Shown: positions 7,501-10,090 of the stretch, piece by piece
Numbering within the stretch: position 1 is the stretch's first letter
Layout: the number at the start of each line of letters is the position of its first letter
Source of the DNA: the human T2T-CHM13v2.0 reference genome, Homo sapiens
Reading direction: 5' to 3'
Assembly (NCBI GenBank): GCA_009914755.4
Contig: CP086569.2
Span: forward strand, 20,288,001 to 20,352,000
DNA length: 64,000 bases
Made by a program: the position numbers

Positions 7501-10090
7501 TGCAAGAGCAGACTAATACAATCTCTAATTCTATTTAATTAAATTTTCTCCAATTTTTTCTTCATTAGTCTGATTAAGTTTGTCAATACTGTTTATCTTT
7601 TTTAAAAACTTTTTTTAAATTTTTTTTATTTTCTTAGGTTTTGGTGGAAACAGTTGGCATTTCATTACGAGTGAGGTCTTTAGAGATTATCTGTGAGATT
7701 TTTGATGCATCCATCACCTAAGCAGTATACACTAAACTCAATTTGTATTGTATTATTCCTTATCTCCCTCCCTCCTTTCCCCTCAATCCCCAACATCCAT
7801 TATACCATTCTTATGTTTTTCACCCTCATAGCTTAGCTATCTCTTATAAGTGAGAACATATGATGTTTTGTTTTTCATACCTACTTAAGTAACTTCATGT
7901 AGAATAATAGTATGTACTTCCATCCAGGGTCCTGTGAATGCCATTAATTTCTTTTTATGGCTGAGTAGTATTTTAGTGTGTGTGTATATATATATGGTGT
8001 GTACATATATATGTAGTATTTTGTGTATATATATGGTGTGTGTACATATATATGTAGTATTTCATATATATGCAGTATTTTGGTATGTGTTTATATATAT
8101 ATGGTGTGTGTACATATATATGTAGTATTTTGTGTATATATATGTAGTATTTTGGTGTATGTGTATATATATGATGTATGTGTATATATATGTAGTATTT
8201 TGGTGTGTGTGTATACATACATATATACATGTATATACACACATATATGTATGTATGTATGTGTACATATATGTATGTATGTGTACATATATGTATGTAT
8301 GTGTACATATATGTATGTATGTGCACATATATGTATGTATGTGTACATGTATGTATGTATGTGTACATATATGTATGTATGTGCACATATATGTATGTAT
8401 GTGTACATATATGTATGTATGTGTACATATATGTATGTATGTGTACATATATGTATGTATGTGTACATATATGTATATATGTATGTGTACATATATGTAT
8501 GTATGTGTACATATATGTATGTATGTGTACATATATGTATGTATGTGTACATATATGTATGTATGTGTACATATATGTATGTATGTATGTGTACATATAT
8601 GTATATATGTATGTGTACATACATATGCACTTCCATATATACATGGATAAATATACACACACCAAAATACTACATATATATACATACACCATATATATAT
8701 ACTCACACCAAAATACTACATATATATACACAAAATACTACATATATGTACACACAGCATATATATACACACACACCAAAATACTACATATATAAATACA
8801 CCATATATATACACACACCAAAATACTACATATATATACACAAAATACTACATATATGTACACACACCATATATATATACACACACATCAAAATACTACA
8901 TATATATACAAAATACTACATATATATATACACACCATGTATATACACACCAAAATACTACATATATATACATATACAAAATACTATATATATATACAGC
9001 TTCTTTATCAACTAGTCGATTGACAGAAATTTGGGCTGGTTCCATTTTTTGCAATTGTAAATTGTGCTGCTATAAAAATGCATGTGCAAGTATGTTTCAC
9101 ATATAATAACTTTTTTTCTTCTGGGTAGATACCCAGTAGAGAAATTTCTGGATCAAATGGTCGTTCTACATTTAAAAATCTTCACAGTGCTCTCCATAGT
9201 GGTTGTACTAGTTTACATTTCCACCAACAGTGTAAAATGTTCCCTTTTAACCACATCTACACTAACTTTTTTTTTAAATTATGGACATTCTTGCAGGAGT
9301 AATGTGGTATCACGTTGTGATTGTGATTTTTATTTGCATCCCTGATTATTATTAATGTTGAGCATTTTTAAACATGTTTGTTGTTCATTTGTATATCTTT
9401 TTTTGAGAATTGCTTATTCATGTTGTTAGCCCATTTTTTGATAGGATTTTTTGTTTTTTCATTGTTAATGGGTTTGAGTTCCTTGTAGATTTTGGATATT
9501 ATCTTCTGACAGATATATAAATTGTAAATATTTTCTTCCACTCTGTGGGCTGTTTACTCTGCTGACTGTTCCATTTGCTGTGTAGAAGCTCGTTAGGTTA
9601 ATTATGTTTCACCTATTTATCTGTGGGTGTTTTTGTTGCATTTGCTTCTGCATTCTTGGTCGTGAAGTCTTTGCCTAAGCAAATGTCTGCAAGGGTTTAT
9701 CTGATGTTATCTTCTAGAATTTTTATAGTTTAAGGTCTTAGATTTGAGTTCTTGATCCATCTTGAGTTGAGGTTTTTATATGGTGAGAAATGAGTATCCA
9801 GTTCCATTCTCCTACATGTGGCTTCCCAATTATCCCAGTACCATTTGTTGAAAAGGATGTATTTACCCACTTTATGTTTTAGTTTGCTTTGCCAAAGATC
9901 AGTTGACCACAAATATTTGGCTTTATTCCTGGGTTCTCTATTTTGTTTCATTGGTCTATGTGCCTATGTTTGTACCAGTACCATGTTGTTTTGGTGACTG
10001 TGGCCTTATAGTGTAGTTTGAAGTCAGGTAATGTAATGCCTCCAGATTTGTTCTTTTTTCTTTGTCTTAGCCTTGCTTTGGCTAGACAGG

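What the first reader, a model, noticed from the sequence alone, without database searches (positions are those of the whole stretch)
7973..8997. 1-kb AT/TG-rich block with inverted arms around a microsatellite core, expanded in situ from about 20 bp of L1
The antisense L1 is continuous across this block. Its left flank ends …ggctgagtagtatt and its right flank resumes cagcttctttatc…. Only the short L1 segment ccattgtgtatatatacca-like is missing between them. The left arm reiterates units containing gtagtatttt plus gtgtatatata, motifs derived from that L1 segment. The right arm carries the reverse complement of the same units (ccaaaatactac…). The two arms are separated by about 420 bp of direct (tatgtatgtgtacatata)n. 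This looks like a replication-slippage or template-switch expansion that produced a large imperfect palindrome. Such structures are cruciform-prone, often length-polymorphic and fragile. It also explains the spurious 200-330-aa low-complexity ORFs here.
Basis: seen in the sequence. Interest (0 to 1): 0.55.

Follow-up and report, generated by a model that had tools for sequence, protein, structure and literature searches.

The report
L1-derived mirror minisatellite with VNTR core

Summary
Window 7973-8997 replaces at most 19 nt of an antisense, near-full-length L1 that is otherwise collinear across the block.

- **Layout:** left arm 7965-8215 has 7 units starting GTAGTATTTT and is TG-rich. The core, 8260-8611, has 17 units of TGTGTACATATATGTATGTA, so the period is 20, not 18. 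Right arm 8651-8997 has 10 units in reverse complement and is CA-rich.
- **Mirror relationship:** the left arm aligns collinearly with the reverse complement of 8899-8651 at 86% identity (92.5% without gaps), z=21 against shuffles.
- **In-place origin:** the unit's first 8 nt are the L1's own flank sequence. There is no target-site duplication and there are no terminal inverted repeats.
- **Most likely history:** slippage built a minisatellite. A template switch or an in-array inversion then flipped part of it. The right arm and the central 20-mer array grew afterwards.
- **Cruciform and fragility:** not supported. The spacer is 435 bp, arm identity is 86% and AT content is 75.5%. All three fall outside the published limits for PATRRs and cruciform extrusion.
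- **Extra finding:** 8203-8630 is a 428-bp perfectly alternating purine/pyrimidine tract. This explains the stop-free ORFs and makes Z-DNA or slipped structures the better non-B candidates.

No orthologs or alleles could be retrieved. This is an ordinary member of a known kind, and interest is low.

The parts
7630..7972 (-). 3' end of the host L1 (sense strand is the window's minus strand). It ends at the poly-T/A-rich tract near 7597-7630, and its last 8 nt before the block are GTAGTATT.
   Evidence: Aligns with the in-window L1PA copy. The sense frame reads YYSAIKRN, matching L1 ORF2 ...MEYYAAIK in copy B.
7965..8215 (+). Left arm: 7 minisatellite units, each starting GTAGTATTT (one starts GCAGTATTT). 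Lengths are 48, 41, 18, 50, 22, 48 and 24 nt. TG/TA-rich with almost no C. The first unit starts with the L1's own GTAGTATT.
   Evidence: TRF periods 41 and 72.
8203..8630 (.). 428-bp uninterrupted, perfectly alternating purine/pyrimidine tract covering the inner-left boundary and the whole core. It is built from TG/TA/CA dinucleotides.
   Evidence: The next longest alternating tracts in the window are 38 and 35 nt.
8210..8259 (.). Inner-left boundary. A quasi-palindromic segment that switches from TG to CA and back. It contains the longest perfect palindrome of the block, TATATACATGTATATA (8222-8237). Candidate for the original centre of symmetry.
8260..8611 (+). Core array of 17 head-to-tail units. 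11 are TGTGTACATATATGTATGTA, 2 carry T>C, 1 carries A>G, and 3 are 24-mers. It lies on the same strand as the left arm, and each unit holds the 12-nt palindrome TACATATATGTA.
   Evidence: TRF 8250-8610: period 20, 17.6 copies, 93% matches. Units listed. Best match to the arms is at 8155-8198 on the same strand.
8612..8650 (.). Inner-right boundary, TGTGTACATACATATGCACTTCCATATATACATGGATAAATA. It is the only non-repetitive stretch in the block and the place where the composition flips from TG to CA. It resembles the inner-left boundary in direct orientation.
8651..8899 (-). Right arm, mirrored part. Read as reverse complement it has 7 units of 48, 22, 42, 46, 22, 46 and 49 nt, forming two HOR copies of about 112 nt. 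It is collinear with the left arm.
   Evidence: TRF period 110.
8900..8997 (-). Right arm, outer part. Three further degenerate units (20, 42 and 26 nt as reverse complement) plus a terminal (TA)6. It has no partner in the left arm.
8998..13905 (-). Rest of the host L1 (ORF2 and ORF1 remnants), with an Alu inserted at about 11860-12200. The 5' end was not mapped.
   Evidence: Stop-free fragments typical of L1 EN/RT/ORF1. Pfam Transposase_22 at 13315-13494, E=6.8e-10. RVT_1 pieces at 10366-10760 are each below Pfam's cut-off but cover consecutive profile positions.

Best explanation
The block is a transposon-derived minisatellite that arose in place inside an old, decayed L1. It has no function.

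1. **Shown.** The L1 segment GTAGTATT-CCATKGTGTATATATA-CCA holds a short TA/TG run that is itself nearly self-complementary. Slippage or unequal exchange duplicated a unit running from the flank motif GTAGTATT through that run. This produced 22-nt and about 46-nt units, and then a higher-order repeat of about 112 nt, on the TG-rich strand.
2. **Shown that it happened; how is inferred.** Part of the array came to lie in reverse complement. One route is a replication template switch or fold-back that copied about one higher-order repeat backwards (inverted duplication). The other is an inversion between two of the many self-complementary motifs in the array, such as TACATATATATGTA or (TA)n. These motifs are their own inverted repeats.
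3. **Inferred from identities.** The inverted part then grew by tandem duplication to about 2.9 higher-order repeats.
4. **Inferred from homogeneity.** Most recently, a 20-nt piece of the inner left arm amplified to 17 copies at the centre, pushing the arms 435 bp apart.

The present structure would fold only if about 1 kb became single-stranded. In duplex DNA it should be stable as an inverted repeat. Its likely remaining activity is length change of the 20-mer array, and possibly Z-DNA or slipped-strand formation in the 428-bp alternating purine/pyrimidine tract.
For: - **L1 collinear, at most 19 nt missing:**
- **Unit head equals the L1 flank motif, and the first unit is the flank itself:**
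- **Marker motif is strictly strand-partitioned, 6 forward on the left and 9 reverse on the right:**
- **Mirror alignment:** 86% identity (92.5% without gaps), z=21, 0 of 500 permutations reach the observed score.
- **HOR identities:** R1-R2 91%, L2-R1 89%, L2-R2 88%, L1 against any other 80-81%. This points to later growth or homogenisation inside the right arm.
- **Core 20-mer:** best matches the inner left arm at 8155-8198 on the same strand. The 20-nt periodicity grades from the left arm into the core (family D1). 11 of 17 units are identical.
- **Self-complementary motifs:** 14-nt and 12-nt perfect palindromes recur in every long unit and every core unit.
- **Known classes:** TE-derived minisatellites that grow gradually in place make up 23% of human mini/satellites (PMC3389668). 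Short template switches that create inverted repeats are documented in human evolution (PMC5453318).
Against: - No ortholog or second allele could be obtained, so the ancestral state, the order of events and their timing rest on internal comparison only.
- HOR identities do not show one-to-one pairing between the arms. The size of the original inverted segment is therefore unknown, and inverted duplication cannot be separated from inversion.
- The L1 subfamily consensus at this site was taken from two L1PA-type copies in the window and from general knowledge, not from a curated consensus. My remembered older-L1 consensus found no match within 3 mismatches.
- The quasi-palindromic, low-complexity sequence allows alternative alignments at the boundaries.
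Confidence: 0.8

Rival explanations
1. A foreign mobile element or satellite with terminal inverted repeats (a MITE-like DNA transposon) inserted into the L1.
For: The block has inverted arms and sharp boundaries.
Against: - There is no target-site duplication. Up to 19 nt of the target are lost instead.
- The inverted similarity is not terminal. The outer 98 nt of the right arm have no left partner, and the two termini do not match each other.
- The repeated unit starts with the host L1's own flank sequence.
- The arm motif occurs nowhere else in the 64-kb window or in the scanned collections, although those collections are not mammalian.
Confidence: 0.03
2. An assembly or sequencing artefact, such as a fold-back chimeric read or a mis-assembled repeat, created the inverted right arm.
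For: Inverted chimeras and collapses are known problems in AT-rich low-complexity repeats (general knowledge). No independent copy of the locus could be checked.
Against: - An artefactual fold-back would give near-identical arms with the same unit arrangement. Here the arms differ by 7.5% substitutions plus indels, have different unit lengths, and the right arm has extra units.
- The right arm joins cleanly to the continuing L1.
Confidence: 0.03
3. There was no inversion event. TG-rich and CA-rich microsatellites expanded independently on the two sides of the L1 TA run and only look like mirror images because of low complexity.
For: The L1 seed GTGTATATATAC(C)AC is nearly self-complementary, so both TG and CA repeats could start there. 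Dinucleotide shuffles still score 125.
Against: - The non-microsatellite marker GTAGTATTTT comes from the LEFT L1 flank, yet it occurs 9 times as a reverse complement in the right arm and never forward.
- The order of long and short units is mirrored, and 0 of 500 permutations reach the observed score.
Confidence: 0.02
4. The inverted repeat is a functional element, for example the source of a long hairpin RNA (an editing or small-RNA substrate) or a structural or regulatory DNA element kept by selection.
For: A single strand folds into a stem of about 250 bp, z=-19. All variants in the core preserve purine/pyrimidine alternation.
Against: - There is no Rfam match anywhere in the window.
- The arms are decaying, with 7.5% mismatches and many indels and no sign of compensatory maintenance.
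- The alternation is expected anyway from TG/TA/CA dinucleotide building blocks with transitions and even-length slippage. Only 3 substitutions are available as evidence.
- The block lies inside a dead L1.
Confidence: 0.04

Closest known systems
Transposable-element-derived minisatellites (Ahmed and Liang 2012, PMC3389668)
   Same: A tandem array lies inside a TE, is built from a piece of the TE's own sequence, and grew stepwise in place after insertion.
   Different: Part of this array is in reverse orientation, and a second, younger 20-bp array sits between the two orientations. The cited survey describes head-to-tail arrays only.
Palindromic AT-rich repeats (PATRR11, PATRR22, PATRR17, PATRR8) at recurrent translocation breakpoints
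   Same: A several-hundred-bp, AT-biased inverted repeat of non-coding sequence that folds strongly as a single strand.
   Different: PATRRs are >90% AT, nearly perfect and have no spacer (PMC4940405). This block is 75.5% AT, its arms are 86% identical, and the spacer is 435 bp. A 9-bp spacer already blocks PATRR22 extrusion (PMC1851657).
AT-rich minisatellites of the rare fragile sites FRA16B (33 bp) and FRA10B (about 42 bp)
   Same: An AT-biased minisatellite with units of tens of bp, variable unit types and hairpin-capable units.
   Different: Those sites are about 91% AT and become fragile only when expanded to several kb, more than 5 kb for FRA10B (PMC9714581). This block is 1 kb, 75% AT, and its longest (TA)n run has 6 repeats.
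Short template-switch mutations that create inverted repeats (Loytynoja and Goldman 2017, PMC5453318) and fold-back inverted duplications
   Same: A nearby sequence is copied in reverse complement next to its source, seeded by a pre-existing short quasi-palindrome.
   Different: The described events are mostly tens of bp. Here at least about 115 bp were involved, and the product was later remodelled by tandem duplication.
Compound purine/pyrimidine dinucleotide repeats ((TG)n(TA)n(CA)n tracts prone to Z-DNA)
   Same: The core is a 428-bp perfectly alternating Y-R tract built from TG, TA and CA steps.
   Different: It has a 20-bp super-period rather than a single dinucleotide. Half its steps are TA, which favour Z-DNA less than CG or CA/TG (general knowledge).

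Membership tests
TE-derived minisatellite | Head-to-tail repeats with units of about 10 bp or more | tested here: met
   Periods of 20, 41, 72 and 110 nt. Units are listed.
TE-derived minisatellite | The array lies within a TE and its unit is derived from that TE's sequence | tested here: met
   The L1 is collinear on both sides. Each unit starts with the L1 flank motif GTAGTATT. The TA/TG part matches the replaced L1 segment seen in copies B and C.
TE-derived minisatellite | Expansion happened at this locus after insertion and was not inherited from the source element | tested here: inconclusive
   The two other in-window L1 copies that cover this site lack any expansion, but they belong to a different subfamily. 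No orthologs were available.
PATRR (palindromic AT-rich repeat) | More than 90% AT | tested here: not met
   75.5% AT overall: 75.7% left arm, 74.5% core, 76.7% right arm.
PATRR (palindromic AT-rich repeat) | Nearly perfect palindrome | tested here: not met
   86% identity including gaps, 92.5% without. Arm lengths are unequal.
PATRR (palindromic AT-rich repeat) | No central spacer (central symmetry) | tested here: not met
   435 bp lie between the arms (8216-8650), and that stretch is strand-asymmetric.
PATRR (palindromic AT-rich repeat) | Lies at a translocation breakpoint, or extrudes a cruciform in supercoiled DNA | not testable with these tools
   Needs cytogenetic data or an S1 / T7 endonuclease I assay.
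FRA16B/FRA10B-type AT-rich fragile minisatellite | About 90% AT, uninterrupted, expanded to several kb | tested here: not met
   1025 bp, 75.5% AT, longest (TA)n is 12 nt. Thresholds are from PMC9714581.
Template-switch / fold-back inverted duplication | A reverse-complement copy lies next to its source | tested here: met
Template-switch / fold-back inverted duplication | The ancestral state lacks the inverted copy, so there was a net gain of sequence rather than an in-place inversion | not testable with these tools
   Needs outgroup sequence. HOR identities do not discriminate.
DNA transposon / MITE | Terminal inverted repeats at the very ends, plus a target-site duplication | tested here: not met
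   The termini do not match. The outer right 98 nt are unpaired. The target lost up to 19 nt and shows no duplication.
Z-DNA-prone alternating purine/pyrimidine tract | Long uninterrupted Y-R alternation | tested here: met
   428 nt, 8203-8630.
Z-DNA-prone alternating purine/pyrimidine tract | Actual B-to-Z transition under physiological supercoiling | not testable with these tools
   Needs 2D gels or Z-DNA antibody / Zalpha binding.

The most novel reading that the evidence does not exclude
The locus is a fossil of a once tight palindrome with arms of at least about 140-250 bp. On this reading the palindrome was born by a template switch inside an L1-derived minisatellite and was then neutralised when a 20-bp VNTR grew at its centre. 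Removing about 8238-8651 (414 nt) in silico restores an almost spacer-less quasi-palindrome centred near TATATACATGTATATA at 8222-8237. If short-spacer alleles still segregate, they could behave like PATRRs.
Probability: 0.15. Interest if true: 0.45.

Novelty: new member of a known kind. Interest (0 to 1): 0.2.

Why it matters
The block is a clean, self-documenting example of how a few bases of a dead retrotransposon can grow into a kilobase of structured repeat, including a strand flip. It is a likely variable-length locus that short-read methods will mis-map. It shows no sign of function, and by published criteria it should not be a cruciform hotspot. Practically, it explains the false long ORFs. 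A perfectly alternating purine/pyrimidine tract cannot contain TAA, TAG or TGA in any frame on either strand.

Tried and rejected
1. **Remembered L1 consensus.** I searched the window for a 47-nt older-L1 consensus recalled from memory, allowing up to 3 mismatches. It found nothing. I replaced it with in-window copies found with a shorter probe and blastn.
2. **Unit split.** The first attempt used a faulty regular expression and was redone.
3. **Ortholog or allele retrieval, all negative.**
   - Exact-protein look-up of the 330-aa ORF found nothing on record.
   - The arm motif TATGTAGTATTTTGGTGTGTG had no match in metagenome contigs or genome contigs.
   - The locus-specific left junction had no match in either collection.
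   - These collections are microbial, so the null says nothing about primates.
4. **Homology searches not run.** The hits would be dominated by unrelated TG/TA translations, and short-read contigs are unlikely to span the array.
5. **Rfam.** No family reached its gathering score anywhere in the window.
6. **Pfam.** A repaired 29-aa peptide across the L1 C-terminus gave no Pfam hit.
7. **One-to-one pairing of HOR copies between arms.** This would have favoured a two-HOR inverted duplication. It was not found.
8. **Original centre of symmetry.** The left-boundary palindrome is the better candidate. The choice is post hoc, and the boundaries also align in direct orientation.
9. **Lewis et al. 2005** on the evolution of the NF1 palindrome is not held in the library.
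Full report
**What is there**

The window is primate DNA. An Alu and L1PA-type sequence lie at 31250-32100.

The block 7973-8997 sits in a near-full-length, heavily decayed L1 whose sense strand is the window's minus strand.
- The L1's 3' end is near 7630.
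- RT remnants lie at 10366-10760, and the ORF1 RNA-binding domain at 13315-13494 (Pfam Transposase_22, E=6.8e-10).
- An Alu is inserted at about 11860-12200.

The block is about 340 bp from the L1's 3' end, in the C-terminal part of ORF2.

**L1 continuity**

With the block excised, 7640-7972 plus 8998-9330 aligns collinearly with a second L1 copy at 31255-31915.

Two in-window copies read GTATTCCATGG(T/C)(A/G)TATA(T/A)GTGC(T/C)A followed by CATTTTCTTAATCC. The block-bearing copy reads GTAGTATT | block | CAGCTTCTTTATC.

In the sense frame, copy B gives DWIKKM-HIYTMEYYAAIK. The block-bearing copy gives LIKKL | YYSAIKRN. The codons for W-x-I-Y-T-M are therefore what is replaced.

At most 19 nt of L1 have been replaced by 1025 nt. 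The number may be smaller, because the terminal (TA)6 of the block may be the L1's own TATATATA.

**Anatomy**

- **Left arm, 7965-8215.** Seven units, each starting GTAGTATTT (one GCAGTATTT), of 48, 41, 18, 50, 22, 48 and 24 nt. The first unit starts with the L1's own GTAGTATT.
- **Core, 8260-8611.** Seventeen units: 11 are TGTGTACATATATGTATGTA, two carry T>C, one carries A>G, and three are 24-mers. TRF gives period 20, 17.6 copies, 93% matches.
- **Boundaries.** The core is bracketed by two related segments of about 50 nt, 8210-8259 and 8612-8660.
- **Right arm, 8651-8997.** Read as reverse complement, it has ten units of 26, 42, 20, 48, 22, 42, 46, 22, 46 and 49 nt.
- **Composition.** It flips from TG-rich with almost no C to CA-rich with almost no G at about 8630-8650. 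The core belongs to the left-arm strand.

**Is the mirror relationship more than low complexity?**

Yes.
- The non-microsatellite marker GTAGTATTT occurs six times in 64 kb, all in or at the left arm. AAATACTAC occurs nine times, all in the right arm.
- The local alignment of the left arm with the reverse complement of the right arm scores 340, against 26 for the direct comparison.
- Dinucleotide shuffles give 125.5 +/- 10 (z=21).
- Permuting the order of the right-arm units gives 281 +/- 18, and none of 500 permutations reaches 340.
- Left 7965-8214 pairs with 8899-8651 over 258 columns, at 86% identity, or 92.5% ignoring gaps.
- Shared 12-mers: left against right, 0 forward and 58 reverse.
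- As single-stranded DNA, 7965-8960 folds with the arms paired: -285 kcal/mol against -196 +/- 4.6 for shuffles.

**Origin**

Three observations point to growth in place rather than insertion.
- The repeated unit starts with the host L1's own flank motif.
- There is no target-site duplication. The target lost sequence instead.
- The inverted similarity is not terminal, because 8900-8997 has no left partner.

The replaced L1 segment contains a short TA/TG run that is nearly self-complementary. Such a run is a natural seed for slippage and for intrastrand pairing.

**Order of events (inferred)**

The arms are built from a higher-order repeat (HOR) of about 112 nt, consisting of a long unit ending ACATAT, a short unit, and a long unit ending TGTATAT.

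| HOR pair | Identity |
|---|---|
| R1-R2 | 91% |
| L2-R1 | 89% |
| L2-R2 | 88% |
| L1-R1 | 81% |
| L1-R2 | 81% |
| L1-L2 | 80% |

There is no one-to-one pairing between the arms. The right arm's repeats are each other's closest relatives.

The simplest reading is that about one L2-like HOR plus the innermost unit was placed in reverse orientation. It then grew in tandem to about 2.9 copies.

An alternative fits equally well. A longer single-orientation array may have had its distal part inverted by exchange between two self-complementary motifs. TACATATATATGTA and TACATATATGTA recur in every long unit and every core unit, and the right end of the block is (TA)6. These motifs are their own inverted repeats. 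Sequence from one haplotype cannot separate the two routes.

The core 20-mer best matches 8155-8198 of the inner left arm on the same strand. The 20-nt periodicity grades from the left arm into the core. The units are nearly identical to one another. The core therefore looks like the youngest layer.

Removing about 8238-8651 in silico leaves an almost spacer-less quasi-palindrome centred near the 16-nt perfect palindrome at 8222-8237. This is post hoc but consistent with a once tighter palindrome.

**Consequences**

The spacer is 435 bp, arm identity is 86%, AT content is 75.5%, and the longest (TA)n has six repeats.

Published benchmarks:
- PATRRs are >90% AT, nearly perfect and spacer-less (PMC4940405).
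- A 9-bp spacer with four mismatches abolishes cruciform extrusion and instability of PATRR22 (PMC1851657).
- Yeast Alu inverted repeats stop blocking forks above an 8-bp spacer (PMC8053094).
- A 52-bp spacer gave no frequent stalling in eukaryotic cells, where the Okazaki initiation zone is 100-200 nt (PMC7999016).
- FRA10B is fragile only above about 5 kb of 91% AT repeat (PMC9714581).

There is one caveat. In unusually long single-stranded regions, even widely spaced inverted repeats with up to 25% divergence can interact (PMC10164571). The arms are therefore not inert under all conditions.

8203-8630 is a 428-bp uninterrupted, perfectly alternating purine/pyrimidine tract. The next longest in the window are 38 and 35 nt.

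This follows from its TG/TA/CA dinucleotide make-up. It has two consequences.
- All three stop codons contain two adjacent purines, so none can occur in such a tract in any frame on either strand. This is the direct reason for the 172-330-aa ORFs.
- Purine/pyrimidine dinucleotide repeats are the classical Z-DNA-forming sequences (PMC9788570). Z-DNA or slipped structures are therefore more plausible non-B forms here than a cruciform. This was not tested.

**Comparison with known kinds, and novelty**

The block is a TE-derived minisatellite, a class that accounts for 23% of human mini/satellites and grows gradually in place (PMC3389668). It differs by an added strand flip of the kind produced by template switching (PMC5453318).

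It fails three of the defining features of PATRRs and the size and composition criteria of FRA16B/FRA10B-type repeats. It is not a TIR transposon.

It is a tidy new example of known processes, not a new kind of element.

**Limits**

No orthologous or allelic sequence could be retrieved with the available collections. Dating, polymorphism, and the choice between inverted duplication and inversion therefore remain open.

Noticed in passing
window 8203-8630: A 428-bp uninterrupted, perfectly alternating purine/pyrimidine tract. Every variant among the 17 core units is a transition or an even-length indel, so the alternation is never broken. The tract cannot contain a stop codon in any of the six frames.
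   Followed up: partly
window 8210-8259 and 8612-8660: The 20-mer array is bracketed by two related segments of about 50 nt in direct orientation (TGTRTACATACATAT...ATATACATG...TATACACAC). The array may have grown between two copies of the former palindrome centre.
   Followed up: partly
window 30627-30774 and 45907-46048: Two arrays, about 15 kb apart, of a 51-bp tandem repeat (AAAAGAAGTGAAAATGGCC.GTCCTTGCCTTAACTGATGACATTC). From general knowledge this looks like the internal repeats of LTR12-type LTRs, possibly the two LTRs of one provirus.
   Followed up: no
window 31250-32100: An antisense L1PA-type 3' end, interrupted at about 31915 by a poly-T tract followed by an Alu. It served here as the internal L1 reference.
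   Followed up: partly
window 59130-59430 (minus strand) and 21080-21330 (minus strand): Two further L1 3'-end fragments. The first covers the same ORF2 site with no expansion. The second is much more diverged.
   Followed up: partly
window 11860-12200: Alu-like sequence inserted in the host L1 between the endonuclease and RT remnants. It was recognised only from the translated fragments.
   Followed up: no
window 38070-38295, 17336-17633, 62481-62704: Other tandem repeats unrelated to the block: a 21/42-bp array CCCCAATCTCTTATTTCTGCA (about 5-11 copies), a 158-bp duplication, and a 106-bp duplication.
   Followed up: no
window 4512-4546 and 18737-18774: Plain (TG)17 and (CA)19 microsatellites. 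They are the only other long alternating purine/pyrimidine tracts in the window.
   Followed up: no
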